NCBI GenBank assembly: GCA_973895155.1
Contig: OZ316893.1
Location: 27,476,210-27,540,209, forward strand
Reading direction: 5' to 3'
DNA: 64,000 nucleotides
From: Marsupella aquatica
Lineage: Eukaryota; Plantae; Marchantiophyta
In this document: positions 9,994 through 39,765 of the stretch, piece after piece
Layout: the number at the start of each line of letters is the position of its first letter
Numbering within the stretch: position 1 is the stretch's first letter
Position numbers and translations under genes: made by a program
Notes under the pieces: model-generated
What the model saw: the letters and a program-made list of their open reading frames with translations, nothing else
What the model was told of the DNA's origin: nothing
Databases searched by the model: none

Positions 9994-10253
9994 TGTTAAG
10001 TTTACGACGTTCATCCGGTGTACATACGCCACTTGCTGTTCCTTTGTCTGTTCCCCCTTCGCCTAGGTGTTATCTGGGGGGCCTGTATATGTGTGATTAC
10101 CGTTAGATTTAGGGTTAATCTTACTTACGGTCCGATTAGTATTCACTGTGCGGTGCATTCTCTCGCCGACCACTCTCTTAAGGACCAATTCACTGTTCAT
10201 TCTGTATTCTTGCTGAGTAAAAACAAGGGAAGCTGCGCTCGTCAGTTTCTTCA
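9994..10253 (+). repeat. 5' LTR
   Basis: TGTTAAG...TTCTTCA. I see 3 mismatches against the 3' LTR. Confidence 0.95.
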
Positions 10254-10265
10254 TGGTATCAGAGC
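10254..10265 (+). promoter_or_regulatory. Primer-binding site (initiator tRNA-Met)
   Basis: TGGTATCAGAGC immediately after the 5' LTR. Confidence 0.93.
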
Positions 10266-10326
10266 CCAGACTGCCAGAGCACGATCGTGGTGAGAATCTC
10301 CCAGCGTTACTCGCGTGCTGAGCAGA

Positions 10327-13300
10327 ATGGCTGGCGGCCCACAGCGATCATCACAGAGCAGCGGCTCCCAAGCTGCCTCACCAGGCAGCAGCACACAGCA
10401 AGCATCGCCAAGCACTGGACCTCCTGCAACTCAGAATGTCCACTACGAGTTTGACAAAGGCCTCGTCTATGCAGACAAGGACAAGCTCGATGGCAGTAAG
10501 AATTTCATCGGGTGGTCCTTCAAGGTGGAGCGACAGTTCCGCAAGGATAAAGTGTGGTTCGAGCTGGTCAGTCCAGACCCCACGAAGCCAATGCAACTCA
10601 CGCCAGAGCAAATCGAAGAAAAGAAGGAAAGAGCAATCTACATCTTCTCTCAGACGGTCAAGGATCACATCTTCCCTATCGTGAAGAAGTACATTGACGA
10701 TCCTGCCAAGATATGGCTGCAGCTGAAATCGCGCTTTGAATCCGTGGCCATGGGTAAGCAGCTCATCCTCAGGGATAAACTGCCTAAGATGCACATGTCC
10801 GAAGGGAGCAATGTTGAGGAATACATTCGTGAGATTGACAACTTGGTGATGTAGCTAGGTGACATCAATTTCGTTATAGAAGATAAGGAACTAATCCGCA
10901 CCACTCTCAAAGGATTACCTGCGAGCTGGAAGCCATTTATCATGTCGTTTGGTACCTTGCTGCATCAGTTCCCGACACTGTCATTCTCAGACCTTATTGG
11001 TCACCTTGAGGCCGAAGAAATGCAACGGGCTTTACAGAGCAACGACACCGAAGAAGCACTGATGACTAGCTACAACACCCAACGTGGTGGCCCTTTTCGT
11101 GGACGTGGCAGAGGCAGAAACAACTATCGTGGACGGGGACGAAGCGCACCTTCAGCCAGGAAGACCGAAGCCTGCAATTTCTGTGGGCATACTGGTCACT
11201 GGGAAGGGGAATGCCTCGAGAAGATTGAGAGCCAAATCAAGGGCCTACAAATCAAGCATGCGGACATTAAGAAGGGCATGCACCATGCAAACGTGGCTGA
11301 GACGATGGAACCTGAAGAATGTGAGTCTGACAGCGATCCCAACAGAAGCATCTTAGAAGTTAATCTCACAGAATTCAAAGCTAGTCAAGATTGGCTAGTT
11401 GACTCAGGTGCTAGTACTCATATAACTGGGAACAAGAGTACTCTTAGTCACGTTGTTCCATACGCATCCACCTCCAATGTAACTACTGCCTCTGGTGCAC
11501 GCATTCCAGTTGCTGGAAGAGGCAGCACTAAGTTCAATGGAAATAACGTGGTCAAAAAGGTTTTGTACGTGCCTGGGATGACTCGCAATCTCTTGTCGGT
11601 TGGTCAGTTGGCTGATGAAGGCCACAATGTATTATTTAATTCCCGTCATTGCTACGTGTTGGATAAAGAAGATCCTAATAAGATCTTTCTGAGGGCAACA
11701 AGGGATAGACACAATAGTCTATACCGACTAGACTCGTCTATTCAGGGCAATGCCAAGCTATGCTCTGAAATACACATTTCATTAGTAGATAGCACGGACG
11801 AGCATGCCAGCAGTCCTCCATCCAACACACCTACGAGCAATGCTGACAGTGAGACACAAAGCGATGTGTCACCCCTTGAGATATGGCACCAAAGGCTCAG
11901 TCACGTAAACTTCCGCAGAGTTTACAACATGTCTTCAAACAAGTTGGTTGAAGGTCTGCCCAAGCTGCCATTGGAGGATCATGTCTGTGATACATGCATC
12001 ATGGGGAAACAACATCGAGAGTGCATACCCAAGAAATCTGCCAACAGGTCAAAACCACTGCAATTGGTTCATACGGATCTTTGTGGCCCCTTGGTTGTTT
12101 CATCTCTTTCTAAAGCAAAATATTTGCTTACATTCACGGATGATTTCTCTCGCTACACATGGGTGTATTTCCTGAAAGCCAAAAGTGAAACCTTCTTAAA
12201 GTTCAAAGACTTTAAAGCTATGGTCGAAAATGAATTCGACAGCAAAATTCAATGTGTTCGATCAGATCGAGGAGGTGAATACTTGTCCAACAAATTCTGC
12301 CAATTTTGTGACAGACAGGGGATCAAGAGGCAACTCACAGCGGCTCGCACACCTCAGCAAAATGGAGTAGCAGAAAGGAAAAACCGAACACTACTCGAAG
12401 CAGCACGCAGCGCCCACATTGCAAGTGGAGCTCCCACGTTCCTATGGGATGAGCTCATTCAATCAGCCACATATGTGCTCAACAGGTGGGACACTTCCTC
12501 TTTGACCTCCTCCACACCTTTCCAACAATTATACAATGCCAAGCCTGACCTGTCTAGTCGAAGAATTATTGGATGCCTGGCGTACGTTCATGTTCCTAGT
12601 GAACTGAGACATAAGTTGTCAGCAAAGTCCATTCGGACTGCATTAGTGGGATATGACAAGAAATCGAAAGCATACAGGTGCTATGATCCTATCAAAAGAA
12701 AAATCTACATCAGTCGTGATGTTGTGTTCAATGAGTTAAAGATGTTTGACTTCAACATCAAACCATCTCAAGCCTCTGCAGAATTACCATTGATTTCACC
12801 GGCTCAGTCCATTTATATCTCTCCTGCAACACAGGAACAAAATTCCTACTCTGCATCCGAACCTGCATCTCCCGACTCTGTGCCTGTAGATCCTAGTAAT
12901 AGTACTAACTCCAACTTAGAGCCACTTAGCCAGTCGAATCTTCTCTTGAGGTTGAGCCCGCACCAGCTGACTCTACCCCTACGAGCACATTACCATTGCC
13001 ATCCCCAATTCGCAGGCAGTCATCTCGTGCTAGGGAACTCCCAGTTCGTCTACGCCAAGATTACGTGTTGGATTTTCGACCCAACAACCCTGATGTCTGC
13101 CTAGTCGAGACTACCGACCCTGTGAATGAAAACATCACATTCCAGCAAGCATGTTTGGACCCTCAGTGGAATGCAGCTATGAAAGAAGAATTTGATTCTC
13201 TGATCAAAAATGAGACATGGGTCCTCACTGCACTCCCACCAGGAAAGAGGGCCATCTCTGCTAGGTGGCTGTACAGGGCGAAGCCAGAGGTAAACCCCAC

Positions 13301-15082
13301 TCGCACTCTCGGGGGTTTCACTTCCACAAAAATGGCATATCACGTGCGACGAAGTATAGGGTCATTTTATTGGTTCGAAGGGAAGACTTAAGAATTTTCT
13401 GAGAAGAAAAATATGGTCTTTTAAATCCAATTTTGAGACTTATAAGAACATTAGGGTCCTTATAACCAAATTTTTGGAATATTCCAAGAATATTCCAATT
13501 TTATAGGGGTTGAAAAAATAAAAAAATTTCTTACATTTTAGGGGGTCCGAGGCCTAAAAACGTCACAGGTGATGGGGAGACATCCATATAGTGAGACCCC
13601 CGAGCTCGCACTCGACTGAAAGCTCGCCTGGTGGCTCGTGGTATTGAACAGCGCTTTGGAGTTGATTTTGAGGACACTTTCGCACCGGTTGTCAAGTGGT
13701 CAACCATTAGACTGGTTATTGCACTCGCTGTAGCTCTTGGCTGGTCTATCAGCCAAATGGATGTCATCACGGCTTTCTTGAACGGCAAGCTCAAGGAACT
13801 AATCTACATGGTGCAACCACCAGGATTTGAGGTCCCAGGATCCGAAGACCTTGTGTGCCAGCTAAATCGATCCATCTATGGCTTAAAGCAGTCCTCGCGT
13901 GCATGGTATGAGGAAGTTGATCGGTTCCTTCGCTCAAAAGGGTGGACCCGGAGCACTGCTGATCATAATTTGTACTTCATCAACGAAGGAGGGAAAATTG
14001 TTCTTCTTCTTCTTTTCGTTGATGACCTACTCATCACTAGCAATGACGATGCCAAAATTGATGAGGTCAAAGCACAACTCAGCCAACAGTACAAAATGAA
14101 GGATCTGGGCAAAGTCACCAGGTATTTGGGAATAGATTTTGTAGATGTGGCCGATGGAATGTTCATCCATCAACGTGACTACTGCCAAAGCTTCCTGGAG
14201 GAATTCGAAATGCAAGACTACAAAGGAGGAGCGACTCCTCTACCCGAAGGATTTGATGTATCGGCTGATATGCTATCACCTGGCGTGGATGCCACTCACT
14301 ATTGCAAGTTAGTTGGCAAGTTGATCTACTTAACTAACACCAGACCGGATTTGGCGTATGCGGTGGGGATTCTCAGCAGATTTATGTCATCTCCACAACA
14401 AAAACACATGGATGCTGCAAGGCACGTTCTCAGATACATCAAATCCACCATTGATTTTGGCTTACTCTTCCAGAGAACTGGAACTTTGTCTCTCTCAGGC
14501 TACACTGACTCAGACCATGCTGCGTGCAAAGACACTCGAAGATCCATTGGGGCCTATGTGTTCCAATTTGCTGGGGGCACTGTTACTTGGGCGAGCAAAC
14601 GAGAAGCAACGGTCTCACAGAGTACAACTGAAGCTGAGTACAGAGCCCTATCGGAAGGAGCTCGAGAAGCTGTCTTCCTTAGGCGTCTGCTCTCAGAGTT
14701 GAGCTTCATCCCAGAAATTCGGGTGGCATTGAATTGCCAAAATCAGGAGGTGATTTCAAATCTGTCGGTGGCCAGTCAACCCACCTTGCAAGATGCTCAT
14801 CTAAACTTACATTGCGACAACCAAGGCTCAATTAATTTGGCGAAGAACCCCATCTTCCATGCTCGGACCAAGCACATCGAACTCCAGCACCATTACATCA
14901 GGGAAAGAGTCCTGGAAGGAGAAGTGACGCTTAAGTACATTCCAACTGCAGAGCAACCTGCAGATATCCTTACAAAATCCCTTCCAAGATGGAAGTTTGA
15001 GAAACATCGTGAATTCCTTGGCATGAAGTCCCTACGCGACATTCTACCTACCCTGGGTAACGCAGCTACTCGGGATGCGTAG
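10327..15082 (+). pseudogene. Copia gag-pol polyprotein, disrupted
   Basis: Zn knuckle CNFCGHTGHWEGEC, protease WLVDSGAS, integrase HHCC plus HTD/RSD/AER, RT KARLVA...LLFVDDLL, RNase H GYTDSD/EAEY/CDNQ/ADILTK. Lesions: TAG at 10852-10854, a frameshift before about 12996, and a MITE at 13308-13604. Confidence 0.95.
13308..13604. mobile_element. 297-bp MITE with 14-bp TIRs and an 8-bp TSD
   Basis: CTCGGGGGTTTCAC ... GTGAGACCCCCGAG (1 mismatch). TSD CTCGCACT at 13300-13307 and 13605-13612. Excision restores VNPTRTRLKARLVA. Confidence 0.95.
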
Positions 15083-15644
15083 CATCGTGATATACCTCTA
15101 AGCAGTATTCACATCTATATAGCTGACCACCAAAATTGCCTTGCCCCATGCTTCGAAATCGGTGCCCATGGACTGCATGGTCCCCTGCTCGCTGCAACTT
15201 ATCCTGCAAGTATCGTTTCGCCTCGCTTCTCGTCTTGAATGACTTGTACACCTGACCCTTATACCCCTTTACTTGTGGCTCGCAGTCCTCCCAGGAATCA
15301 TACAATCCTGGAACATATCCCCGCACCACTGCATAGTACTTTCGCCTTGTGGTATGGTCACTGAAGTAGTGGGATGTTGGCACAACTGGCTGTATCGTGT
15401 GCTGTGCACCCTGTACATCAGGCGCTCGGGCGACTTTCACCATTACCTGTTTGCCCTGCTCCCCTATCTGTGGCTCGTCCTCTCTCTCGCCCTGGTGCTC
15501 TTCTACCTCAGTCGCACTCGCATTCAACTTCCATTGTACATACTGGAATTGAGTCTCGACCATATCTCCCAGCACCTTGAGTACCAACCTTATCGTACCC
15601 AACAACACCCAGAGCACTTGCAGGCCCACTCTGCTTACATCCAT
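15066..15644 (-). CDS. Antisense ORF of the copia element encoding an RNase H1 N-terminal hybrid-binding (Cauli_VI-like) domain
   Basis: Open ORF between pol and the PPT containing KYYAVVRGYVPGLYDSWEDCEPQVKGYKGQVYKSFKTRSEAKRYL. It has a hydrophobic N-terminus and a C-terminal H...CEYC. Confidence 0.8.
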   Translation of the reverse strand: MDVSRVGLQVLWVLLGTIRLVLKVLGDMVETQFQYVQWKLNASATEVEEHQGEREDEPQIGEQGKQVMVKVARAPDVQGAQHTIQPVVPTSHYFSDHTTRRKYYAVVRGYVPGLYDSWEDCEPQVKGYKGQVYKSFKTRSEAKRYLQDKLQRAGDHAVHGHRFRSMGQGNFGGQLYRCEYCLEVYHDATHPE

Positions 15645-15679
15645 TCTCCACACTTGCTCTGTGCATTTGATGGATTACC

Positions 15680-15692
15680 GGACGGGAGGGGG
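15680..15692 (+). promoter_or_regulatory. Polypurine tract
   Basis: GGACGGGAGGGGG directly before the 3' LTR. Confidence 0.88.
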
Positions 15693-15952
15693 TGTTAAGT
15701 TTACGACGTTCATCCGGTGTACATACGCCACTTGCTGTTCCTTTGTCTGTTCCCCCTTCGCCTAGGTGTTATCTGGGGGGCCTGTATATGTGTGATTCCC
15801 GTTAGATTTAGGGTTAATCTTACTTACGGTCCGATTAGTATTCACTGTGCGGTACATTCTCTCGCCGACCACTCTCTTAAGGACCAATTCACTGTGCATT
15901 CTGTATTCTTGCTGAGTAAAAACAAGGGAAGCTGCGCTCGTCAGTTTCTTCA
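15693..15952 (+). repeat. 3' LTR
   Basis: 260 bp, near-identical to 9994-10253. Confidence 0.95.
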
Positions 15953-17782: not shown

Positions 17783-18005
17783 TAATGTTTCAAGACCTTT
17801 CCAACAGTATCAAGATAAACAATTTGGGTTCACTAACAAGAGAGTTATGAAAGGTCAATCCTGACCCAATGGGTAACTACCAAAAACAACCAGCAACTTT
17901 GAGATTCACATCTTCTTTGTTAGTAAGCATCAGTGAGCCATCTTGAGCTTTTTGGAAATGATTTATCATGATGACCTTGCCATTAACACCTATAATGCAA
18001 GGTCC
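17783..18005. repeat. Degenerate fold-back repeat related to the flanks of the 20-33 kb element
   Basis: The left half (AATGTTTCAAGACCTTTC...AGCAACTTTGA) resembles 19948-20073. The right half (TTCACATCTTC..TGTTAGTAAGCATCAGTGAG...CCTTGCCAT) resembles 33037-33115. Confidence 0.6.
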
Positions 18006-19064: not shown

Positions 19065-20783
19065 TCTACTTCAAGAATCCTTCTCAGGCAGAACAGGTTT
19101 ATTGTGGAGTTTTCTGATGTTTGCGTTTCACTACATTAGGATGCAAAAAAGTAGTGGGGAATATGAGTTGTTTTAGCAAACCAAATATACTCCTTGCAAG
19201 AATGGCTTTAGTTAGCATAACAGATTTGGAGATTTTTTCCCTTGATTTGGCGTTTTCAGACAAAAAGTATCCATATTTGGAATCACATATTGGATCAGAA
19301 ATTGGATTATTGTGCTGAATTGAGTTTTTGTAACAACAAAAAATGTGATTTCCATCATTAATTTTTTGCAAAATCAAAAATCAAAAACACACTTCTGGTT
19401 AGCAGGTCATACTTCTGGTTTGGTCAGTCAACATGATTGTTCTTAATATCCTGGCATTAGGATTGCACTTTGTTGCAGCAACTATAATGGAACAAGTAGG
19501 TAGTGTTAATTTTCAAAATCCAGATTGCATTGTTCATAGATGCCTGAGCACACATACAAGTTCTGGCATGGGATACCATGAGGTCAAGAATGCGATTGAG
19601 AGTTATCAATGACCTCCATCATCCAATTCTAAATATGAACATCTTTGGCAGCCAAATGCAACCTAACTTGTCAAGGCTTGCATTTGAGGAATGTGTGCGA
19701 ATTAACTTTGCCTTTGCCCTGCTTACCATTCGATCACTTGATAATGGTGTGCCAGTTATCCTTGGTTACTATATGCTGAAAATGCCTTTACCAGATTCTT
19801 GATAGGGTCCAAATGAGATCTGCAGGATCTGCTCCTCCACTGCAACTGTATACAAGATTCAAAAATGAAATTGAAATCATTTTCAGAAATTTATAATTAT
19901 TTTTCTTGTTAGTCAATGCCAATTGGAAATCTCAAGCTCATTGGAAATAATGTTTCAAGACCTTTCAAACGACATCAAGATCAACATTCTAGTCTAGTAA
20001 CAACAAAGTTATCAAAGGTGATCTTTGCCAAATTAGTCCGCAGCTACAATAAACAATGAACGAGCAACTTTGAAAATATCACCCTATTCATTAAAACTGG
20101 AATTTCTCTAGTCCAGAAGTTGACCTTCAAATTTCTTATTTTACCCCCAAAAGTTCTATAACTTGTTCCCCAAAAGCATACATTTTAGTGGCCAAATATA
20201 CACTTTTTGAGGTCTAAAATTACAATTCTAATGCCCAAATTATTAATTAAATAATTCAGTTATCAATTATTAATACTTATTAATTAAAAGACATTAAAGT
20301 GTTCTTATTATATACAATATAAACAATGAAAAAATAGAATAAGACAATATAATAAATTGAAATGACCATGATAACCAAGTTACACAAAGTAACACGAAAG
20401 GTAAACCGATGATGTATTATAAAAGTAAAAAACCTATTTTTACAGGGTCGAGACCACGTCTGCCCCAATGCAGGCTCTAGATGGTTTTGACCGGTTGTTG
20501 AATGTATATCAATTACTATGTAAAAACTTATGTCAAGATTATCTCGACCCAAATGTAGGGTCCACATAATTTTGACCCGTTGTTGAATCTATATCTCTAG
20601 CTATTCCCTTTGTAGAGGGTCTAGACCCAAATAACCTTTTTCTGAGAACATATCTACAAGTAAATGAGGATCAACAGCATCTAGACTCAAATGGATACTA
20701 CGCATAGCTTCACTCTTTTTTCGAGTAAGAATATGTATATGTACAACTCACATCGTAACTGTTCAGTGTAGGGTCGAGATAAT

Positions 20784-22058
20784 CTAGACCCAAATCTCAT
20801 GCTCCTCCACCCCGCAGAATTCATTTGAGCAAGTAAACCTAGACCTTGACGGGTCATATTTCATATCGCGATTACAGAAATTGAGAGGCTTTCTATTCCA
20901 GAACTTTGTTGTGAGGTCCCTACACCTCAAGACTTCCAAAACAAATCCCCGATGATTGTCTCTGTAGGGTCCTGTGTACTGATATCCAATTAATGTCTTT
21001 GCAAGGTCGTTGATCGCCTCCTCCGTCAATTCCTCCATTGGTGGTAATTGTTGCACTTCATTTTTGATATCCCAGGGAATTTCGTCCGCTGTAACATCCA
21101 AGACTGTATGGATAACATTGGGAACCCATACCATACTACCCCACCTCTCCGACAACAGAGCATAAATGGCAGCCTGTTGATCCCTGTCCGATAAAACATT
21201 GATCATAGACCACTTTGGATGATTGATAAAAAGATAGTGCTGAAGATTGAAGGCATGATACAATTTCCTGAGCAGAGGCCACAGTATTTCTGGAAAGAAT
21301 GTATCATCCGTGGAGTGATGCGAAAATGAGGAAGGAAACAACCCACAATTCTCTGGATTTGCAAACGCCTTCATTGGAGTGTCATCAAGAAGGAGTGTAT
21401 TAGTTTCGTCGTATAATCCACCATAACGTTTCCAAACAACTCTCAAATCCTTCAAAAGAATATTTGCCTTCCCATCGGTAATGTCAGGCCTCTGGATTCT
21501 AGTATCGAATGTATCTTCTTGAGTGAGAATAAACTTGAATTGCTCTCTCTCTTCTTGATTGAAGATCAAATGAATCATTTCATCCGTCCTGGGTTTCCTT
21601 GCACAAGTCCAAATGGCAAGATCAAATAATGAAAAAGCTGCGATTAAGAACTCGTGAAGATGGGGTCGCTCAACATACATAAAGTTAAACCCTCCACGTC
21701 TCCCCCAGTGGACACCATTGACACTTGTCGCACTACGGCGCGGTCCGGAACTTGGCGTTTTGACAGAATCCCAACACATTTTGTTGAGGTCAAGAATCAA
21801 TAGCTTCCGTCTGATTGGACCGTGAAGTGGAGGCAAGGGTCCTGCAAAGTACGAACACCAACGTTAGAATTGTGGGAGATAAAACAAAGGAATGCTCGAG
21901 ACGATCTCGATCATCACAAGTGAATGAACAACAGTCAACATCATACCTGTTGTTTGTGGAAGGTCAGTAGTTGAAGAAATCTCAGGACATCTTCGGAGAT
22001 TATTGTCGACGCACTCCACAATTGGTAAGGGCCCGCCTATTTCTGTGAAGGTAGACAT
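20784..22058 (-). CDS. FCP1/NIF-type HAD phosphatase-like protein (exons about 22058 or 22042 to 21947, and 21841-20784); may be the 3' part of the upstream gene
   Basis: KLLILDLN, ERPHLHEFL, LAIWT, LLKDLRVVW and NTLLLDDTPMKAFANPEN are FCP1-homology motifs of the DxN-type subfamily. A phase-1 intron, ACAG|gtatga ... ctttgcag|GA, joins the exons in frame. Confidence 0.8.
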
Positions 22059-22112
22059 AATAATTTAGACGGCTGAATTTCCGGACAGTTCAAACTAACT
22101 TGGGTTTCAACC

Positions 22113-25100
22113 TCACGTGCTGAAAGACCCAAATTCATCTAGAAGGTTATCTCCTAGTTGGTTTTGGATGTCCAAATTTATCCCTCCGGGAAGGGTCTCA
22201 ACAAGAGCTGGCTCAGACCAAATTGGCACTAATTTGAACTTATCCATCCTATACTTTCTAGATCGAATAATCTTCTTAGACTGCTCTATAGAGACTTGTT
22301 GACCTTTTGACGGTCCATCAGTCCAAACATAATGAGTAGCACTTGCTTTGAGTGATTTGTAACCAGTTCTACCGATTTCAGTCCCCGGTTTCCTAACAAA
22401 AGGGAGAATTACGGGGCTTCCAGTAGAAGAATCTGTGAAAACAAGCTTATTCTCTGAAGTGCAAAACATTTGGTCCAAGGGAGAGGACGATGCACCTGCC
22501 TCGTCCTGAGGGGGAGTATGGAAGCCACTAGCTTTCTTAGTAGAGAAAATCTCATCCAGTTGAGGAGGGCTTGGAATTGGTTGGCTAACTGCATCCTGCA
22601 GGGTGGATTCCCAGCCAACATCCAAGGTTGAAGACTGTTGTTCACGTTGTGCATCCCCAAGGCCACCCGATGAAGGAACACTTGGAACATCGAGATCATC
22701 TCGAGCATCATTTCCAAATTCAGGGAGTATTTCACCCTCCTCTTCCATGTAGCTTGTAATTTTCGGGCCCTCCGTTTTGCGATGCTCTAAATTCTCCGCA
22801 AATACTTCCTCATAAACACTGGCTTCCACTGGAGCTATGTCTGCGGCCGCCTCTTCTATAAGAACGAGGGGACCAGCAGTAATTTCCTCAGATGGTAACG
22901 GCTCCTTGGGTGGCACATATAAAACTTGCTTGTTGTCATGAAGGAGCTGAGCAAAGGCTTCAGTGAATTCCATCTCTTGAGCTGTGTCCGAATACACAAA
23001 ACAATCCCGACCAAGAATGACACAAGCTTTCAATGTCTGTCCTCCAGAGAAGAAATCCAACACTGTATGACCTGGGCACGAGAAATAATCAACAAGACGC
23101 TTTGTCATTCGCAAAGGCTTTGCTCTCGGATTTACAAAGCCACCACGCCGACCGACCATCTCATAAGATGGGGCCATCTTCTCCAAAACTTTGACATCAA
23201 CAGTGGATTCATCGAGCTTCTCTTTCCCCTTTGATTGGTCTTTGTTGTTCCCAGTAGGGGCCTTCAAAGGCAAGACTGTGAAGTCTTTGTCCCACTTCTC
23301 ACTGTAGTTCCAGAACGCATAAAAGTCATCAAAGAAAATTTGGGACCAGTCTGGTTCCTCTTCACAACAAATTCCCCCAAAGATGATTGAGTCCCGAGCT
23401 CCAATGAGAAAATCTCCCTCCTCCTTGGGCACCTGATCACGGTAGTAGCTCCCGTACTCCAGCTTCGTGTGCACTTTCTTCTCACGACGAATCTTTTCAA
23501 AGGCACTCTGAATCTGGCCTATCAATGGGCCTTGACGGACAAAAAAGATTACTAAGACCTCCGTCGAGTTCGCCATCTGCAAGCAATACTCCAGCAAGAC
23601 AAAAATTTCGGCATCTGTCCACTGCCGTTGTCGAATACGACCAAAATTGACAATGGAGAGTCAACAACCTCAGGCTTCATTGTCCTCATCAAATTATCGC
23701 TAAAAAATGTGCGATAAGGAGTATCCTCCATTGAAGGCAATCTGCCAAATACCTTGCAATATATCTGCTCAAGCCTCACAATGAGACTTTGCGGAAATGG
23801 GTCTTTTGGCCTATTTCTTTTTAGGAGGTTGGAAATCCAAACCTCTCCAGCAAGTTGTCTAAGTTTGGGCAACTCACCACGATCCATAAATGCAGGCAAC
23901 AATTGAGTTAGCTCAAACCAAGTGAGTGAATTGGTAAACCGATCCGGATACTTCAAAACGAAGTACTCCACAATTTTTACCCTCAGCTTGGTCATGACTT
24001 TGAAAGTATGAGCCATATCACTCATTGATTGAATATCAGATTTGTTGGTTTGGTCTTTCTTCAATAAAACCTTCTGTTGTTGAACGGCAGTAAAAACTTT
24101 CAGAATGTCGTCATTACTCAGGTCTCCTTCAAAGCATCTAAACAATGCCGGCGTAATCATTTTTGTTGTCCGGGCTTTCCCATTTATTTTTGAACCTAAC
24201 TCCCCTAGACCATCCGGAAGAAGTCCCTTGACCCAATCGATGCACATTTGTCTCCAAGTTCGGAAGAGGTTCTCATCCGAAAACAACAACCAAAAAATAT
24301 TCCTCAGATCGGATTTTCCAATCGTTATTTTGGCAAGGGCCATAAAATCCTGGTCCAAACAGTACAAAACAAATCTGAGGCTCGAGACGATCTCGAGGTA
24401 GAATTAAGGAACTATGATAAAATTTATGGGGAATACATGAAGATAAATCAAATATAGAAACTTGACCTCGAGGCTCGAGACAATCTCGAGCTCGAAGTGG
24501 ATTTGAGTTCAAATATACCTAGAACTTTTGATGATCCGTTAGTCTATTGGACCCAATCACGGGTCTCTCCGGACGGCCACACTCGTCAAACTGTCGACGC
24601 GCATGGACCATAGTATCAAGAAAACAGGACTCATACTCCATTGTCTTATTAACAGCATTTGCCCTTTGTGAGTGTTGAGCAAGTATTGTCCTTGGAGTTC
24701 TGTCCGAAAGAATTCGTGACGTTCGATATTGCAGACTCTTCGCGACCTCCTTCAACTTTGCATCGCTCTTAGCCCAACCTATGATCCAAACAGCTGCTTT
24801 TGCCGAGTGTTGTCCACTGATTGCAAGGAACTGCACCTTCTTATTCTTAACACCCCACTCAAACTCCTTTCGATCCTCAGCAGTATTCTCATAATGGAGC
24901 AACTGCAAACTCTCTCTTGAATACGGAATTAAATCCGCCACAGCTGGTACCATTCCAGGGTTTCTAACCATGGATTTTGCGACCTCCATGGCATGGTCTT
25001 TATTGAACATCCTATAAACCAAAACTGCAGATGGCGAATCTATACTGGTGACAGGAATGTTAAAAGTTTCATTCATGCCAAATGTGTAATACTCCTCAAT

Positions 25101-27012
25101 CTCCTTAAGAACTTCGGCTCCTTCCTTAACGCTCTTTTCTCCCGGAGCATCTCCTGGAGTGCCATCATCATCGGTATGTGCATTCACACCCGAGGAAGAT
25201 GCCGGAATGAGATCTACCTTGGGCGATGCGGAATTTTTTGGCGGATGAGCCTTCTTCGATTTGATTTCGGGTTTGTCAACCCTCTTCCTCTTTTGAGACA
25301 CCTTCGCTTCATTTTTGTCCGAACCGGAGGTCTTGTCTCCTGCAGCTACGGATTTCACTTTACCTGTTTGTCTCCGATGAGACAACACCCACTTTTTACA
25401 AGCATCTTGGTCAAATTCTTCGGCTCCAAACACAAAATCAGAGGATATAGATTCAAACTCCCCCAATTTGGATTCCAACATTAGTCTCAAAACCTTCCAC
25501 GTGAAAGGAGTCGTGAATGCATCATCGCGATCAAGCCCATACTTCCGACAATAAAGGAATCCAAAAATTATGTCCGCTCCAGATATAGGAGTATCTTCTA
25601 GCAAATTACTTGTAGTGAAACCCTCGGGGAAGAAACCCATTGATATCACGCTCAGTTGTTTCCTGGCTGCACGTTCAATGTTAAGATCGCAAGAGTAGTT
25701 TTTGGCGTGAAGTCTAATTAGAGCCCACTTCCCTGTTTCGTGGTTCTCCACCGTCAAAACCATGTCCTTACCGTTACTCGTCACAATAGAAACAACAGGC
25801 CCTAGAAGGCTGCACACCAGAGGATCGACTGATGGAGACCTCGTCTTCACACAAATAATAGTTCCTTCCATGTCTTCAGTTTCAGCAAGCTCAATGGCCC
25901 AACAGAATCCAAATAAACTCTGTCCAGGGCAGGAAATCTCAATTGCATGTTCATCTTCGACTACCAGATTAGGCGATCCCAATTTCGCACCTGTACAGCA
26001 AAAATATAGCAATTGTCAGGAACATGTACTACAAAACCAAGAAACAAATAGGTGGCTCGAGATGATCTCGATCTTCAGTTTACTATTCAGACATGTTCCA
26101 ATGTCATTTCATCCGTGGAATTTAAAAAGAGATTTCAAACCCAAGAATCCCAGGAAACACAATAGGCTCGAGATGATCTCGAGCCACCATCTGTTTAAAA
26201 GAAAAAGATAAGGGCTCGAGATGATCTAGATCCACATATATATCAGTTGAGGCTTTATTCCAACTAGTCCAAAAGGCAAGTTTGGATCACATTGAAAAGG
26301 ATATTAGTAATTGAAGTAGACAACAAGGAGTCCTTCCAACTGGAAGAAATTGGCCAAGGGAGACGAATGAACATAAGGGAAGACGGTGTGGGATATATTC
26401 GGCTCGAGACGATCTCGAGCCTAACATATCAAATGAGTGATCTGAATATCATATTCAACAATTAACATCATATTCAATCAACGATAAAAAATCCACTTTC
26501 TCCATTAACTTCGGATACCCACAAACCCGTTCGGATGTCAATGATCAGAACGAGTTGGAGGGCACAGAAGTCCCTGGAGGAAGGAAATTTTAGATATTTT
26601 GGATATAATGTTCAATTTTGAAGGGTAAGGGTTTCCAACTTGAAGAAATCTCACTAGGTCACATGCAGGAATTGCATATTGGCTCGAGACGATCTCGAGC
26701 CTCATGCCACTTACATCAAATGCAAAATCAATTAATAGATCACAACTTTTGAAACAAAGTATTGGAGAAAACATCAATAGGCTCGAGATCATCTCGAGCC
26801 TCAACGGCATCCAAGGAATCCAAAAACAAGTGGACCAATTGAAGCTCGAGACGATCTCGAGTTAAACCTGAACAGAACAAAGATGAAGAATTACGTTTAA
26901 TCGTGCGATGGATCTGATGTGCTGAGTCTAGATGGGTCTGGAGCTCTTCGCCAACGGTTGCAAGGTTGTACTCAGCGAAGTCCTCCTTGGAGAAATCTAC
27001 AACAGTCGACAT
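22113..27012 (-). pseudogene. Multi-exon gene: ParB/Srx-like domain plus N4/N6 DNA-methylase-like fold
   Basis: Exon 25990-24519 (acceptor tgtacag|) has IPVTSID...R.FNKDH...FLAISGQHSAKA. Intron 24518-24350 is preceded by TAG at the junction. The exon from 24349 has a frameshift at about 23590 and then NPRAKPLRMTKRLVDYFSCPGHTVLDFFSGGQTLKACVILGR. Upstream exons from ATG 27012 are tentative. Confidence 0.7.
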
Positions 27013-28165
27013 GGCTGGTGATGAGAGGAACGTACTACGGGCTGAGAACTTAAAACAAATCTCGACCCTAAAAAGAAAATCTCGACCCTATCGAAGCTCG
27101 AGCCTAAACACAAAATCTTGACCCTATAAAATCTCGAGGAAAAAACCTAATCTCGATCCTCTGCAATCTCGAGGCTAATAGAAGGATCTCGAGGCAAGAG
27201 CGCGAAACGATCTAGAGGCAAGGAGGCAAGGGATGCGAGGAGGCGAAGAGGCAAAGAGGCGAGGAGGCAAATGTGAAAATGGGGAGTTCAAAACCCCTGA
27301 AGCCACTATAAGCCCCTCGGGGGTCGGCCTTGGCCGTGCCAAGCGTGCCAGGGCTCGTGCAGGCTCAGGCAGGCTGCCACGCAACCTACTGAGTGCGTAC
27401 AGTCATTATTACGGTCACACGTGTTGTCATTATTGTTATCCATACTTCAGCCCTGCCGCAAGTTTAGCCGTGACACAAGTTCAACCATTCCGTCTTATTG
27501 CCCTTTTTGTCTGTCAGGGTTTTATATATTGCTTCTCCTTGCTCTTCAGCGGGTCATTCTTCTCATTTCGTTTCACCGCTCGCTCGTTTCTTCCTCTGCC
27601 TCTCTGCTCTCTCTCCCTCTCCCTCTCCCTCTTTCTGGCTCTAGATTTGTGCTCTGATCTCTTTCTGTTGTTCTTTTCAAGGATTTTGGAGTCTACGTTT
27701 GTGTTTAGGATATTTCAAGAAATTGTCATTTTAAGCCCCGAAGGAGGTCTAAAATAATTGAGCTCCTATCTTTTAGAAAACCGAACCTTTTCAGCTTATA
27801 CTAATGTCGGTCAAAATCCATTTGGAAGCCTTTTCCCTCTATTTGATGGCCTTTTAGAAGCTTTTTCTCAGTGTCTGGAAGTAAACTGGGAGCCTACTTT
27901 CTTAATTGCACCAAATCATTCCTCTAGATCATCTAGAGCCATTTATATGTTCTTATTTTGGGTGGCTTATTATTCCTAATAGTTTCTTTGTCAAATACAA
28001 TGTCCTTTTTGGCTCGAGATCATCTCGAGTCATAAGTTTGGTCCTCAAACTTATTCACTTTCCCCTTCTTTCTAATGGTGCATTTGGTTTTCCTTCTTAT
28101 AATAAATGTTTTTAGAGTGTCGGAGGTATAGAATCTTAGTTCGATATTCAGTGAGATTCATATTT

Positions 28166-28394
28166 TACCTCGAGATCGTCTCGAGCTAAATACTTCTGAA
28201 TTTTTACATATTGGTGTTTTTGGTCCCTTTTCTACCTCGAGATCGTCTCGAGCTAAATACTTCTGAATTTTTACATATTGGTTGTTTTGGTCCCTCTTCT
28301 ACCTCGAGATCGTCTCGAGCTAAATACTTCTGAATTTTGACGTATTGGTGTTTTTGTCCCTCTTCTACCTCGAGATCGTCTCGAGGTAGAAGAG
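28166..28394. repeat. 67-bp tandem repeat (about 3.3 units), each unit carrying the palindrome
   Basis: Unit TACCTCGAGATCGTCTCGAGCTAAATACTTCTGAATTTT..., with a period of 67/67/66 bp. Confidence 0.92.
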
Positions 28395-28517
28395 CTTCTT
28401 ATTTTCTCTATCACACAATTTTGTGGGATAAACTTCTACACTTGGGTTTTTGTAGTCACTTTACCTCGAGATCATCTCGAGGTAACTACATCCAACGGTT
28501 TGGGCCACGTTTTCAAA

Positions 28518-31500
28518 ATGGGGAGTTTCTCTCGAGGGGACAAGGTGTGCCTCGTAATCGACGGAGTGGAAGTTGCTTGCGGGACGGTCCTCAAGGTTGA
28601 CCCGGGTGACTCAGTGCGTAATGTTGATTTGGGAAGTAATCGTATAGGAGTTCTCATTGAGAAGTGCTATGAGGGATCACGGGAAATTCCTTACCCTTTG
28701 CCGCCGATCAGGACCCTGTTTGATGCTGTCGACTCTTGCATTATTTGGGATGCCCCTTTTGCATATTTGAAGTCACAGTCAACTCCAGCGACAACGAAAA
28801 TGGATGCCTCCTGTTCTACAAAGGATACGGTTCCGGGTTTTGTACCAGAGAAATCGTCGGTGGAAAGTTTTGGAGACTCGATTGTATCTGGCGATGAAGT
28901 CGAGGTCTGGATCGGCAATCAGATTGTGGCTCGTGGATTTGTGTTCAAGACGAATCCCGATGAGACATGTCACAATGAAAGACTTGGCACTTCTAGGATT
29001 AGTGTGAAAATATGTGAAGTTTTTCAAGGAAGGGAGAGGTTACCCTTTCCTCACAATGGAGCCGATACCGTTCAGGAAGCATTGGATACTTTTGTATTGT
29101 GGAATTTAAAGGATGTTACTCGGAGGAGTTCTTCCCGGGATATGCTAAACAACCTGTCCAGACAGGATGTTTTTCAAATTATAATTTCAAGGATTATAGT
29201 TTGCGTTCTAATTGGATGACCGAGGAGGTGGAATTGTATGCTGAGGATAATCGGACCAAAGTGGGGGTTGGCATCATCACAGTTCCTTTCGAGTCAGGTG
29301 CAATTGATGATGATGTTCTTGGACCAGATCACGTTGGGGTTGCTGTCACACGCGTGATTGACCCTCTATTTTTCCCAAATATCTCCCCGGGAGTGCCTGG
29401 TCTTGTTAGGTGGGCCGTCCGTTCACTTTTGCTGATATCAAGGGGTATTTTTCTTCTGGATCTCATTGAAGAGATTTCTCCGAAACCAATTATTGATGGT
29501 CGAGATCATCTAGAGGTAGATATGAAAGGTGACACTGAGTTTTTGAAGCGCCCGTATAATTTCATCAAGAGAACAAAGGTCAACCCAGATGAAAAAAGGA
29601 AGAAGCACTTGGAGTCTCGGGCGATACTGAAAATCACAGAGGAGGAAATCGACTCCATCCAAAGAGAAGGTTGTTGTAAGTTGAAGTGTTGCCTCAGCAT
29701 GCCGAGAGAAGACCTACAGGCGATAAGGAGGGAATACCATGGGATGTCAAGCGACAACAAAACTAGTCACATTCTCACTTTTTTTGGCTGTAGGGAGAAG
29801 GAAGTGGAGACAAGGATATTTTGTTGTAAGAAGTAGACTTGTTTGCAAGGGTGCATTTATTAAAATGCATGGATTCAGCACTGCCAAGTATTATGATTAC
29901 AAAAATCAATATGAAGCAGGTTGCACTGTTGGATTCCACGGAAACAAGGGTTCACACAAGACACGGGGAAGCACCTTGCATGCTCGTGCTTTGTTGGAGT
30001 CCATTCTAACCCAAAACGAAGAACCCATGCCGCATCTTCCCTATGGAGGGTCTCACGGGACTGACACGGTTGAGTACAGACTTCCATCTTGTTTCACGAA
30101 GAAAGAGATTTTTGAGGAGGTATACTCAAAAATGGAATTAGATGGCTACGTGAAGGTGAGTGAAAACACTATGTATAAACTCTGGAGTGAGTCCTTCATG
30201 AATTTTGACTTTCACAAGGGAAGTGCATTTGCAAAGTGTACACTTTGCACTGAGTTCAAAGATCAGTTGATGCGGGAGAAGAGAAAGAAAGAGCGTTTAG
30301 AGATTGAGGAAAGAAGAGCTCGCCATCTTCGTGAGCAAATGTCTAGGAGATATGTTTACTATGCTCATAGGGTTCTTGCGAAGAAGGATCTTGAGAACTA
30401 TCTTTGCATTATACATGACAAGATGGACCAGGCCAAGACATGGATCCCTAGGTTGGTCCCCACTCCTAAATCATTGTCTGGTAGTGGTCAACCGCTCCCC
30501 ATTGCGCTCACTGGGATGTTGACCCATGGAAGGGATCCCGGAGTGTATGCTCACTTCAGTTTTACTGGGCTTTGGCCAGGAGATGCAGACTTCACAGTGA
30601 CATCATTGGCCAAGTGCCTTAGAGATCTGGAGGATTACAAGGGGGACAAATCTGGAGACCTCCTTTAAGGATTATATTGGGCTACAACGAGGCCAATTTT
30701 TCAATCTCTTTTGGACTTTGAAGCATTTCTCGCAGGTTACTTAGAACCCAAAAAAGTCTCAATTGCTAGATTTCAAGGAGCTGAAGATGACCAAGACGAC
30801 TTTGGTGTTGATCCCAAGGCTACGTCTACCTCTTTCAAACCATTGCCAAGGCACCTGACCTTGCAAATGGATAATTCAGGGAAAGATAACAAAAACCAGT
30901 ACGTGATGGCATTTTGCAGTGAGCTTGTTAGTAGAGGGGTTTTTGAAACAGTGCAGATGTCGTTTCTCATGGTTGGTCACACCCATGAGGATGTCGATGC
31001 ATTGTTTTCAAAAGTATCCAACCAAGTGAAGTACAAGGAGGTTTCTACCCTCTTGGGGTTGATGGCTGAGGTTTGGGAGTGTGAAAGCATTCATCCTGTG
31101 CCACGGTTGATCCAAGAGGTTGCAGCTTACAAAGAGTTTTTGAAAACTTTCAAGGTAAAAGACATAGAGGGTCACTCAAAACCAGTGGCATTTCTTTTCT
31201 CTATGAGAGATAATGTTCCAATATATCAATACAAAGCACATGTGAAACAACCTTGGTACCCTCCAACCGGAAGGTCCATTTGGAGAACTGATTCCAGCAC
31301 CAATGCTCTCATTTTACCAGAAGGTCAACCGTTTGCAAAACCCATCTCCGGGGATGTACGAGGCAAGGTTGAAGAAATCATCTCATTCCTTAATCGTTAC
31401 ATTGAGTTTTTGAAGAAGAGCTGTAAGGATGAGACCTCTACAGCATATCGTGAGCGGTTTCCTTTGGTAAAATATTGGGAGATGGTGGTGCAAGTATTAT

Positions 31501-32204
31501 CTGGGGAGCTTACAATTGAAGGGGAGGCAGAAATATAGTTAGCATTGACATATGAATTCTGGCCAAAAACCAACCACGGAACTGGTTACAAGGTTAATAG
31601 TACAGGAACCTCTGAACCATTGGGGGAGCCTAGTAGTAGTACACAGAATCCACAAATGGTGGAGCTTAAGAATGAGTACCTGGAAGAGATGGAGGATCAA
31701 GCTGCAACATTTGTTGGTGCTCGACACGAGCGAGAACTTGCACGTTGGATTCCTCTGCAGGACATTCAAGAGGGTCACTTTGTATTTCTCCGTCCAGAGG
31801 ATGAATGGGAAAAGAAGAATGGGAAAGAACGTTTCTGGTTGGTGAGAGCTTTGGGTGTTGTGGACCCAAACCATGAGGTTCCTTCAGAAGACTTGCAATG
31901 CAATGAGAATTCTCCTACTAGTACACGGTATGCTCCTATGTTCCAAGTGCAATGGTGGAGGCCTAAACATGGTAAGCATGATGCACCGGATCATGTGCGA
32001 TATTCACGTTGTTTTCAGACCACTAAGACTTGGGAGGTGGATCCTGGGTTTGACAGTGCCACTGAACGTTGGCAATTTGCTAATTCTGCTATGTATGGAT
32101 TCAAGTCACGCTCTAGAGAAGAAAATATAATTGATAGAGGTTTGACCATTCCCAAGAATGTTTTGAAAACACTCAAAACCTACATGGAAGGGATTGTTGA
32201 GTAA
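28518..32204 (+). pseudogene. Transposase, Sola1/DUF7869-like RNase H fold, with three N-terminal Tnp1/En-Spm-like repeats
   Basis: Motifs CTLC, CIIHDKMDQ, LQMDNSGKDNKN and FLMVGHTHEDVD. Five ORFs join into about 1230 codons through two frameshifts (about 29150 and 29800) and two in-frame stops (30666 TAA, 31536 TAG). Confidence 0.8.
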
Positions 32205-33121
32205 GTCAAATGTTTTTTAGTAGTCACTCTGTCAGAGTGAGGGAGTCTAGTATGTCAATTAGTTTGGAATTAGACATGTCAGAGTGAGGGAGTCTATGTC
32301 AATTAGTTTGGAATCAGACATGTCTTTAGTACTTACTGAGTGTTGGTTAGTACTAAGTACTAGTATATCTATTTAAGGAACTAATTATTATAATATTTTG
32401 GGATACTAGTTTGAATAGGTGGAGGTAATTGGACTTGGATACCTTTATAATTGCTTCAATTAATTATTATATCAATACAGACTATATATTACATGAAGTC
32501 TTAATATCCATGATAGGATGTGAGTGCCTCTTAGTACTGTCTAGTAAACCTTAGTTTCAACTCGAGTTGCTTAGAATGTACTAACAAATTACTTGTTTGA
32601 ATGGATATTTAAACTAAACCCTAAGTAGAAGGTTAATTTAGCTAGCTAAGGGTAGAGATCATATTGAAGCTTTACTAGTTATATGGGTAGAGATCATATT
32701 ATTTGAAGTTTTACTAGTTATATGGGTAGAGATCATATTGAAGCTTTACTAGACACTTATATTCTATTAGTCAAATTGAATCAATGTAAGTAAATTCTAC
32801 TTCTTATCCAACATATTTTACATTATTATCACCCAAATGTTTTTCTTTAGAATCCAAATTAATATTTCATTTTCTCCTATGTACAATCTTGATCCCCCAA
32901 ATGTACAACATCTGGTGCCCAAATGTACAACTCCCACTGCCCAAATGTACAATTCTTGTGCCCAAATATTTTTTTTTTGGTGCCTAAATGTCCAAAGATC
33001 AAAGAATTTTCCAGTTTTAATGAATAGACTGATAAATTCACATCTTCCTTGTTAGTAAGCATCAGTGAGTGCTCTTGAGCTTGAACTTTAAAAGGATTTT
33101 TCAATACCTTGCCATCACTAC

Positions 33122-36491: not shown

Positions 36492-37259
36492 ATGGCTGTG
36501 CAGAAGTTATTTGATGTTTGCAAAGCAGTGTTTCCAATGGCCGCCAATTTTGCACCTCCATCTGCGGAGTCTCTGCACCGAGTGCGTACAGTTCTGGATG
36601 GTATCAAGGCCGCAGATGTTGGGCTCGAGGAGAACTCTGTCGAGCAGGAGCGAGGGTTTGGCATGTTTGGGAGGAATGGTATGAGAGGGCGGCACTCCAT
36701 CTCCGCCCGGTGGGCTCCTCCGATTTCATACCTCCATTTGTACGAGTGTGAGAGCTTCTCCATGGGCATATTTTGCCTCCCAACATCAGCTGTGATTCCC
36801 CTCCACAACCATCCCGGCATGACGGTTTTGAGCAAGATGCTATATGGATCCATGCATGTCAAAGCATACGACTGGGTCTCCTCTCATGATGAAAGGCTGA
36901 ACGGGAATGCGTCAAGGCCAAGGATTGCGGAACTGGTGCTAGACAAAATCTTGACTGCTCCTTGCGAAACCGCCATTCTGCATCCCACAAGCGGAGGAAA
37001 CATCCATGCGTTCACTGCGGTGACCCCTTGTGCTGTACTCGATGTTCTGGCTCCTCCATACTCTGCAATAAATGGCAGGCATTGCACATACTACAGGGAG
37101 TACTTAACTGGCCTTCTTCCTGGGGTTGAAGCAGGGATACTAAAAGATGAGGGCACGGATGAGAATGATCAAGGTTACAGTTGGTTAGAGGAATTCCAAC
37201 CTCCTGATGATTTTGTAGTGCACAGGGGCGTATATAGGGGTCCCAAGATTGTGCCGTGA
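36492..37259 (+). CDS. PCO: Plant cysteine oxidase (PCO/ADO family), coding region without introns
   Basis: VQKLFDVCK, YLHLYEC, PLHNHPGMTVLSK, GGNIHAFTAVTPCAVLDVLAPPY, GRHCTYY and YRGPKI. The His triad HNH...H is present. Confidence 0.95.
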   Translation: MAVQKLFDVCKAVFPMAANFAPPSAESLHRVRTVLDGIKAADVGLEENSVEQERGFGMFGRNGMRGRHSISARWAPPISYLHLYECESFSMGIFCLPTSAVIPLHNHPGMTVLSKMLYGSMHVKAYDWVSSHDERLNGNASRPRIAELVLDKILTAPCETAILHPTSGGNIHAFTAVTPCAVLDVLAPPYSAINGRHCTYYREYLTGLLPGVEAGILKDEGTDENDQGYSWLEEFQPPDDFVVHRGVYRGPKIVP

Positions 37260-39129: not shown

Positions 39130-39765
39130 TGACTTCGCCGACGCTTTCTGAAGCGTTCCTTGTATTTTTGGACGCTTTGAAAAGCGTCCACCCAAGACCA
39201 CAACGCTTTCTGAAGCGTCCACCACCCAACCAGTTGTACTCCGACGCTCTGCAATCCACATGAGGAGCGACGCCCACAGAAGCGTCTGCTACCCCGAAGG
39301 CGACATCGACACTACGACGCCCACTGAAGCGTCCCGCCCGGAGCCCAGAAAATGGACGCTGTGACCAAAACCTCGAAATTCAGCCGACGCTTTCTGAAGC
39401 GTCCATAAAAGTACTTTGTAGTTTTGGACGCTTTCTGAAGCGTCCACTATGTTCCCGACACTTAGAAAAATTTTCAGTTTTCGCACTTTTATAACACTGC
39501 GCCGCTTTTACCGATTTATTTGAGGCACTTAGAGATCTCAGAAAAGTCCGAAACTTTGTCAGCATAGAGATTATATGTAGTAGAGTACCCTAGAAAAGTT
39601 TCAACTCATTCCGACTCTTAGTTTAGAAGTTAAAATTAGATTAAAATCACTATTTATTAGTTTTACCGCAAACACCGACGCTTTGCAAAGCGTCCGCTCA
39701 AACCTCGACGCTTTGAGAAGCGTCCCCTGCATTTTTGACACTTTCAGCAGTGTCCATTCACTTTT
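39130..39765. repeat. Non-autonomous DNA-transposon-like segment with about 10 palindromes GACGCTT-nnnn-AAGCGTC
   Basis: Copies near 39140, 39171, 39202, 39269, 39316, 39386, 39427, 39677, 39707 and 39737, flanking a GAAACTTTG...AAAGTTTC core. Confidence 0.7.

What the first reader, a model, noticed from the sequence alone, without database searches (positions are those of the whole stretch)
20445..29515. parS-like 17-bp palindrome CTCGAGA-nnn-TCTCGAG concentrated in introns and the divergent promoter
Seen: about 17 of the 19 well-matching copies fall outside the confidently called coding exons, including inside the 105-bp intron (21895) and the 169-bp intron (24381, 24474). The spacer is always 3 bp. 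The copy at 27922 has symmetric transversions (CTCTAGA-TCA-TCTAGAG). The copy at 28369 extends to a perfect 16-bp stem. A 67-bp tandem array amplifies the motif just upstream of the transposase ATG. The CpG-rich arms are mostly intact although the ORFs are decayed. Inference: binding sites for a dimeric element-encoded protein (the ParB-like cargo or the transposase), maintained by selection and possibly protected from CpG decay.
Basis: partly seen in the sequence, partly recalled or inferred. Interest (0 to 1): 0.8.

Follow-up and report, generated by a model that had tools for sequence, protein, structure and literature searches.

The report
Plant transposon's self-recognition palindromes
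A 13-kb jumping gene, likely from a land plant, carries 19 copies of one 17-letter mirror-image DNA word, mostly outside its predicted coding exons, and these likely serve as docking sites for the element's own helper protein, which has a probable ParB-like domain and a probably inactive DNA-methylase domain.

Summary
There are 19 copies with up to 2 mismatches (0.16 expected), all inside one 12,956-bp DNA transposon (20078-33033; 25-bp TIRs, AAAT TSD, DUF7869 transposase, Sola1-like). Seventeen of 19 are non-coding under my exon model.

- Seven copies lie in a predicted 904-nt first intron of the cargo gene and seven in the transposase leader; the core divergent promoter has none.
- The spacer is not free: it reads YGA in 18 of 19.
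- The cargo also has a beta-class amino-methyltransferase fold that lacks the catalytic DPPY/SPPY motif in all 14 relatives matched there.

The 38 arms show no CpG transition but four C-to-A changes. This favours sequence reading on double-stranded DNA over a hairpin. Neighbouring intron CpGs are depleted as usual, so chemical protection is not shown. The element ends lack sites, which argues against the transposase.

Best reading: operator-like sites for the cargo protein, working like VANDAL/VANC. Binding and function are untested. ParB-methylase cargo and this idea are already published for algal transposons; the land-plant case, defined site and pseudo-enzyme were not found in my searches.

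The parts
20074..20077 (.). Left target-site duplication AAAT
   Evidence: Identical to 33034-33037; a similar repeat at about 17783-17983 looks like the empty site
20078..20102 (+). Left terminal inverted repeat, 25 bp, 23 of 25 matching the right one
   Evidence: low-depth flank contigs end at 20104 (table 8)
20445..20792 (.). Degenerate variant sites (GTCGAGA..TCT(C/A)GAC) at 20532 and 20773, plus half-sites, downstream of the NIF gene
   Evidence: other copies read G at 20535
20784..22058 (-). Predicted NIF/FCP1-like phosphatase gene, 105-bp intron 21842-21946 holding the site at 21895
   Evidence: Pfam NIF E=1.4e-16; splice ends and ATG
22113..24349 (-). Cargo exon 3: helical domain, beta-class amino-methyltransferase fold without DPPY, disordered tail holding the in-frame site at 22689; frameshifted near 23640-23690 in this copy
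   Evidence: Pfam N6_N4_Mtase 28.1 bits over cut-off 26.7; 22-24 gap letters in contigs of three runs
24350..24518 (-). 169-bp cargo intron with sites at 24381 and 24474
   Evidence: relative L001 has an intron at the matching place
24519..25990 (-). Cargo exon 2: N-terminal region, basic linker, ParB-like domain (about 24600-25100); in-frame stop at its last codon in this copy
   Evidence: Atlas features 0.91-0.94, DUF3723 31% and ParB_N 35% of cluster members; 34-37% identical to P0053 and P0058; stop at 24521
25991..26894 (-). Predicted 904-nt first intron of the cargo gene with seven sites (26056, 26167, 26215, 26403, 26683, 26782, 26845)
   Evidence: Phase-1 donor and acceptor match; four diverged contigs stop aligning at 25993 (table 8)
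26895..27012 (-). Predicted cargo exon 1 (39 codons from ATG)
   Evidence: no transcript evidence
27057..27217 (.). 36-bp tandem array of half-sites (TCTCGAC/TCTCGAG) in the predicted cargo leader
27220..27640 (.). Inferred core bidirectional promoter, purine-rich and pyrimidine-rich ends, no full site; site orientation flips across it
   Evidence: sequence; 16 of 18 orientable sites follow transcript direction
27922..28481 (+). Transposase leader with seven sites, four of them in the 67-bp tandem array 28166-28385
28518..32204 (+). DUF7869 (Sola1-like) transposase gene, broken in this copy by frameshifts and stops; in-frame site at 29499
   Evidence: Pfam DUF7869 E=1.2e-39; breaks
33009..33033 (-). 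Right terminal inverted repeat
   Evidence: low-depth flank contig begins at 33007
33034..33037 (.). Right target-site duplication AAAT

Best explanation
The 17-bp word CTCGAGA-YGA-TCTCGAG occurs 19 times in one 13-kb DNA transposon, and it is likely the recognition site of the element's own cargo protein, which is predicted to carry a ParB-like domain, a helical domain and a probably inactive methyltransferase fold, would bind it as a dimer on double-stranded DNA, and would most likely keep the element's two divergent genes from being silenced. Shown: the sites, their invariant arms, the element boundaries, the methyltransferase fold of a relative and the missing catalytic motif. Inferred from splice signals and homology: exon structure and non-coding placement. 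Inferred only: that sites spread by local duplication and are kept by selection in active copies; that the cargo is the binder; that the outcome is anti-silencing as for VANC rather than autorepression. Rough odds: element-encoded binder 0.8, cargo as binder 0.6, anti-silencing as the outcome 0.35.
For: 19 sites against 0.16 expected, all in the element and none in the other 51 kb. 17 of 19 non-coding, p=5e-7. In 38 half-sites TCT.GA is invariant, with 0 CpG transitions, 4 C-to-A and 5 outer-base changes, while CpG o/e of the same introns and leader is 0.37-0.54 and flanks are unrelated. As an RNA hairpin the absent C-to-U change costs 2.1 kcal and the observed C-to-A costs 6.0, so sequence and not pairing is conserved. 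The in-ORF copies fall in a disordered tail or linker. No full site lies within 1.8 kb or 3.5 kb of the ends. The cargo has Atlas features of ParB_N/DUF3723 clusters and a CcrM/RsrI-type fold (Z 16.9, rmsd 3.9, 221 aligned, on relative P0053). Placement matches VANC21 motifs in introns, intergenic regions and tandem repeats (PMC5735166, passages). Red-algal Plavaka elements have inverted-repeat arrays beside a ParB-like gene (10.1101/2025.02.11.637652, section 8).
Against: No binding, expression or methylation data. ParB homology is weak: no hit in Pfam, PHROGs, NCBIfam or PDB, low model confidence there, and the motif reads SGQHS without the arginine recalled for ParB. Conservation across copies was not shown: no listed difference falls in the 19 sites (0 of 40 shown out of 1,567; 0 of 6), but only about one was expected in each. 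Co-variation of site and protein could not be tested: the one relative with DNA (L001, 1.8 kb) has no site and one short intron. Some contigs match only a site plus about 15 flanking bases and then diverge, so the word may also occur outside this family. Intron CpGs next to sites are not spared.
Confidence: 0.55

Rival explanations
1. The sites bind the transposase, as subterminal motifs do in hAT and CACTA elements (recalled), for end synapsis or promoter control.
For: Seven sites and the tandem array lie just upstream of the transposase ATG and one lies in its ORF. A 2026 preprint abstract says transposases can activate their own copies (10.64898/2026.08.24.746577, search listing only).
Against: No full site within 1.8 kb of the left end or 3.5 kb of the right end; the TIR does not contain the word; 11 of 19 sites lie on the cargo and NIF side.
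Confidence: 0.13
2. The cargo is an active N4-cytosine or N6-adenine methylase with an unusual active site, and the word is its target; the position that varies only between C and A is the methylated amino base.
For: Beta-class fold. The Asp at the end of the motif-IV strand and DFFSGG are kept in relatives. Half-site position 4 is C 34 times, A 4 times, never T or G. GATC is present in 18 of 19 sites. N4-cytosine methylases exist in Marchantia (10.1101/2021.02.12.428880, passages).
Against: (D/S/N)PP(Y/F/W) is found in only 2 of 52 proteins scanned, both conventional methylases; 14 family members read LAIVDFSR-like there, the rest are mostly fragments. Motif I is one residue shorter than in M.RsrI.
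Confidence: 0.1
3. The sites were recruited for a host transcription or chromatin factor, or are a neutral by-product of local duplication.
For: Local duplication is evident (67-bp and 36-bp arrays) and explains the orientation bias. The word occurs in other contexts in the laid contigs.
Against: Neutral copies should lose arm CpGs as the flanks did (0 of 38). No match in 51 kb of other window sequence, which includes host genes and other elements.
Confidence: 0.12
4. The copies act as stem-loops in pre-mRNA or as DNA cruciforms.
For: Symmetric transversions at 27922; stems extend to 9-16 bp; orientation follows transcription in 16 of 18; most copies lie in predicted transcribed leaders and introns.
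Against: Wobble-compatible transitions are absent, while pair-breaking C-to-A changes are uncompensated at 26215, 29499 and 20773 and outer-pair mismatches occur in 5 copies. One sequence is used throughout.
Confidence: 0.07

Closest known systems
Sola1-1_Ec32 of Ectocarpus (PMC12477816; passages and supplement rows)
   Same: Giant Sola1 element with 4-bp TSD; accessory gene on the strand opposite to the transposase, encoding ParB-like plus N4/N6 methylase domains; authors propose it binds and modifies its own element.
   Different: Brown alga, 21.5 kb, 282-bp TIR; no palindrome is mentioned in the main text (0 hits for 'palindrom'); methylase predicted active. Its consensus FASTA could not be read, so sites and catalytic motif there are unchecked.
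Plavaka PAG2/PAG3 cassette of Bostrychia (10.1101/2025.02.11.637652; section 8 and passages)
   Same: ParB-like accessory gene with adjacent inverted-repeat units, an N6_N4 methylase gene, and self-binding proposed but untested.
   Different: EnSpm transposase; ParB is fused to a 2OG oxygenase and the methylase to SET; repeats are tandem arrays next to PAG3, not spread through introns and leaders. Supplements closed.
VANDAL21/VANC21 anti-silencing system of Arabidopsis (PMC5735166; passages)
   Same: Short motif accumulated in introns, intergenic regions and tandem repeats of a cargo-bearing plant DNA transposon; the best functional analogue.
   Different: Mutator-type transposase (per one search's and one search's context and recall), 8-9-bp non-palindromic motifs, no ParB or methylase fold; hypomethylation is shown there and untested here.
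Bacterial ParB/parS and KorB/OB; phage ParB-methylase fusions (PMC4738411 passages; mechanism recalled)
   Same: Dispersed palindromes, one inside the protein's own gene; ParB-like N-terminal domain; ParB fused to a beta-class methylase, as in phage record G001.
   Different: Eukaryotic transposon, no ParA gene seen, no recognisable HTH, no arginine patch, no DPPY; a profile comparison with the phage ParB domain gave nothing.

Membership tests
Sola1 DNA transposons | 4-bp AWWT target-site duplication | tested here: met
   AAAT on both sides; AWWT called a Sola1 hallmark in PMC3845634, but also seen for Sola2 in PMC3627910
Sola1 DNA transposons | Terminal inverted repeats | tested here: met
   25 bp, 23 matching
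Sola1 DNA transposons | Transposase groups with Repbase Sola1 proteins | not testable with these tools
   Pfam DUF7869 E=1.2e-39; the link of DUF7869 and the GHTH motif to Sola1 is recalled; Bao 2009 not held
ParB/parS | ParB N-terminal (CTP-binding) domain | tested here: inconclusive
   Atlas 0.91 with ParB_N cluster (35% of members, 122 shared features) and 0.94 with DUF3723 cluster (31%, 176); no profile hit; model pLDDT under 50 there
ParB/parS | Arginine-rich GxxR motif (recalled) | tested here: not met
   Window, P0041, P0053 and P0058 read SGQHS
ParB/parS | Central helix-turn-helix DNA-binding domain | tested here: inconclusive
   Helical domain models well (pLDDT 82); fold searches gave no clear match
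ParB/parS | Multiple palindromic sites near or in the gene | tested here: met
   19 sites, 10 within the predicted cargo gene
ParB/parS | Partner ParA ATPase gene | tested here: not met
   The element's long ORFs give only NIF, N6_N4_Mtase and DUF7869 at cut-off
Beta-class N4C/N6A DNA methyltransferases | Fold and motif order (IV before I) | tested here: met
   M.RsrI E=1.2e-8; CcrM Z 16.9, rmsd 3.9, 221 aligned on relative P0053
Beta-class N4C/N6A DNA methyltransferases | Catalytic (D/S/N)PP(Y/F/W) | tested here: not met
   Absent in the window copy and in all 14 family members matched at that strand; present in 2 of 52 proteins, both conventional methylases
Beta-class N4C/N6A DNA methyltransferases | SAM-binding FxGxG | tested here: inconclusive
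   Conserved DFFSGG, one residue shorter than M.RsrI
VANDAL/VANC | Motif enriched in non-coding parts and tandem repeats | tested here: met
   against PMC5735166
VANDAL/VANC | Mutator-type transposase and VANC protein (recalled) | tested here: not met
   Transposase is DUF7869; cargo is N6_N4_Mtase-like
VANDAL/VANC | Sequence-specific loss of DNA methylation caused by the cargo | not testable with these tools
   No methylation data; CpG o/e proxy is mixed

The most novel reading that the evidence does not exclude
Land-plant transposons carry a prokaryote-derived ParB-pseudomethylase clamp that loads at parS-like palindromes in the element's introns, spreads along the element, and uses its dead methylase fold to cap CpG cytosines (reading the amino group shared by C and A) and so shut out host silencing. 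It would be a second, independently evolved anti-silencing system, and part of a portable ParB-plus-palindrome cassette used by unrelated transposase superfamilies.
Probability: 0.2. Interest if true: 0.9.

Novelty: new variant of a known kind. Interest (0 to 1): 0.6.

Why it matters
Only VANDAL/VANC is described as a transposon that binds and modifies its own sequence through an accessory protein (statement in the Bostrychia preprint). ParB-methylase accessory genes of algal transposons were proposed to do the same, with no defined target. This element supplies an exact candidate site with a usable tolerance pattern (C or A, never T, at the CpG cytosine), a family-wide loss of the catalytic motif, and a probable land-plant host. 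That makes the idea testable by one binding assay and one methylome.

Tried and rejected
Genome-wide motif scan: no genome is held for this window. Word-based homologue searches for the methylase region found nothing; the HMMER search found 50 proteins. Metagenome scan gave one 1.8-kb relative without the site. Viral scans with cargo and transposase gave nothing. The pattern scan of viral contigs gave 26 loci, 24 with a single copy. One phage record (G001) had 8 matches at up to 2 mismatches against 2.45 simulated and encodes a ParB-methylase. I rejected it as support: it was picked by the pattern, holds 539 TCGA words, and its two perfect copies lie in longer paralogous stretches that look like coding repeats. 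Fold searches with the helical domain gave no clear match (best Z 4.8; none at E<=0.001; Atlas 0.78). Profile comparison of the ParB-like region with the phage ParB failed. No RNA holder listed. The homodimer prediction was never run. Across-copy conservation of sites was underpowered. The spacer-versus-arm CpG contrast (10 of 19 against 0 of 38, Fisher p=2e-6) is not used as proof of protection, because the spacer changes are 9 TGA to 1 CAA (p=0.02) and so look selected. Literature searches returned no land-plant ParB-methylase transposon with a defined site; the library lacks most subscription journals and Repbase.
Full report
OBSERVATION. The pattern CTCGAGA-N3-TCTCGAG has 19 matches at up to 2 mismatches, all in 21895-29515; 0.16 were expected and no shuffle of 100 gave more than 1. 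Only the 3-base spacer is enriched. The 67-bp array, the symmetric transversions at 27922 and the 16-bp stem at 28369 are as described. Degenerate copies with G..C outer bases lie at 20532 and 20773, and half-sites form a 36-bp array at 27057-27178.

THE ELEMENT. The sites lie in one DNA transposon, 20078-33033 (12,956 bp), with 25-bp TIRs (23 matching) and AAAT on both sides. A similar repeat at about 17783-17983 runs across the insertion point and looks like an empty site. In contigs of four public runs from three studies, summed depth over the element is mostly tens to more than a thousand times that of the flanks (for example X2 309-2,503 against 20-35; lower in parts of X5), and low-depth flank contigs stop at 20104 and start at 33007. 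Summed depth is not a copy number, but the element is clearly a multi-copy family; the best holder may be the window's own source. The transposase is DUF7869. The TSD fits Sola1 (PMC3845634, passages); the assignment of the enzyme to Sola1 is recalled, not tested. The host is probably a land plant: Copia element and PCO gene nearby, and the only named cargo relatives among the ten looked up are from the liverwort Riccia sorocarpa. This copy is broken by frameshifts and stops in both main genes.

THE CARGO. The minus strand carries a three-exon cargo gene and a separate NIF phosphatase gene. The cargo ends at 22113, where relatives also end. A predicted first exon (27012-26895) joins exon 2 in phase across a 904-nt intron; four diverged contigs stop aligning at 25993. 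There is no transcript evidence. Relatives P0053 and P0058 show the same order: ParB-like region, helical region, methylase fold, disordered tail. The methylase fold is secure. The catalytic motif is missing: 14 family members read LAIVDFSR-like at that strand, and (D/S/N)PP(Y/F/W) occurs in only 2 of 52 proteins scanned, both conventional methylases. The ParB label is a lead: Atlas scores 0.91-0.94, no profile or PDB hit, SGQHS in place of the recalled arginine motif. The helical region models well and is the candidate reader by position only.

WHERE THE SITES ARE. One is in the NIF intron, two in cargo intron 2, seven in cargo intron 1, seven in the transposase leader, and two are in frame in a disordered tail or linker. 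Non-coding DNA is 33% of the element and holds 17 of 19 (p=5e-7; 14 of 16 with the array collapsed, p=1e-5). The core promoter and both subterminal regions have no full site; the nearest are 1.8 kb and 3.5 kb from the ends. Orientation flips across the promoter: 16 of the 18 sites with a central C or G follow transcript direction. Local duplication from two seeds could explain that.

WHAT IS CONSERVED. Oriented consensus: CTCGAGA-Y-G-A-TCTCGAG. In 38 half-sites TCT.GA is invariant. The CpG cytosine is C 34 times and A 4 times, never T; the outer base varies 5 times; a further A four bases beyond the S flank is seen in 26 of 38, though copies are not independent. Flanks are unrelated outside the array (median identity 0.31). 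A hairpin would tolerate C-to-U (2.1 kcal lost) better than C-to-A (6.0 lost), the opposite of what is seen. C and A both present a major-groove amino group (established chemistry), so direct read-out of double-stranded DNA is the simplest inference. With four events, a mutational cause is not excluded.

CpG PROTECTION. Not shown. Outside the motifs, CpG o/e is 0.37 in intron 1, 0.42 in the leader and 0.54 in intron 2. In favour of regional sparing, exons beside the clusters have 0.79, while the site-free 3' part of the transposase has 0.41 and the right end 0.05; promoter proximity explains this equally well. The degenerate site at 20532 has lost an arm CpG in this copy only: other copies read G at 20535 in all depth of three runs and 90% of the fourth. 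Across copies, none of the 40 listed differences (of 1,567) and none of 6 in a 281-bp stretch with three sites falls in the 19 sites, but about one was expected in each. Several contigs share only a site and short flanks, so the word exists in other contexts, either diverged relatives or elsewhere.

MECHANISM. Most likely the cargo binds the site as a dimer, and active copies are selected to keep and multiply sites wherever coding allows. The pattern matches VANC motifs (PMC5735166, passages), so anti-silencing is my first choice for the outcome, with autoregulation next. Binder, dimer state and outcome are all inferred.

COMPARISON. Ectocarpus Sola1-1_Ec32 has the same layout and domain pair, and its authors propose self-binding (PMC12477816, passages and supplement rows). 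Bostrychia Plavaka elements pair a ParB-like gene with inverted-repeat arrays (section 8). Their sequence supplements could not be read and may already show such sites. Earlier notes of this scan describe similar pairings on fungal hAT, protist and other elements and on phages. These are unchecked AI notes, used only as a lead that the cargo is the common factor. Other papers seen as passages: PMC4738411, 10.1101/2021.02.12.428880, PMC3627910, PMC4455052, PMC11162782.

VERDICT. A real, non-random feature and a new variant of a proposed but untested kind of system. Interest 0.6.

Noticed in passing
window 39140-39754: A second, unrelated spaced palindrome GACGCTT-N4-AAGCGTC in 10 copies (up to 3 mismatches) within 600 bp; the copy at 39737 has symmetric CpG transitions. 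No homology to the cargo or transposase nearby. Possibly the remnant or end of another element.
   Followed up: partly
window 32650-32752: 39-bp tandem array near the right end whose unit starts GGGTAGAGATCAT, resembling a variant half-site.
   Followed up: no
window 22058-22113: The NIF gene's predicted ATG is only about 55 nt after the cargo stop, suggesting a bicistronic or read-through arrangement.
   Followed up: no
window 26770-26799: In run X3 summed depth at this site is about 33,000 against about 3,000 nearby, as if this site with its flank is amplified separately.
   Followed up: no
window 20166-24950: Contigs of two runs join these places: an internally deleted derivative of the element.
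   Followed up: no
window 9994-15952: Copia element with 99% identical 260-bp LTRs, a recent insertion.
   Followed up: no
window 59548-61249: Element with long inverted ends around 35-bp tandem arrays.
   Followed up: no
window 36492-37259 and 62892-63920: Intron-free plant cysteine oxidase gene and a 2OG-Fe(II) oxygenase ORF.
   Followed up: no
G001 (L028, L030 19765-19994): Phage with a ParB_N plus N6_N4 methylase gene (DPPY present) and, about 2 kb upstream, an array of CGAAACGTCGGAGCAG repeats.
   Followed up: no
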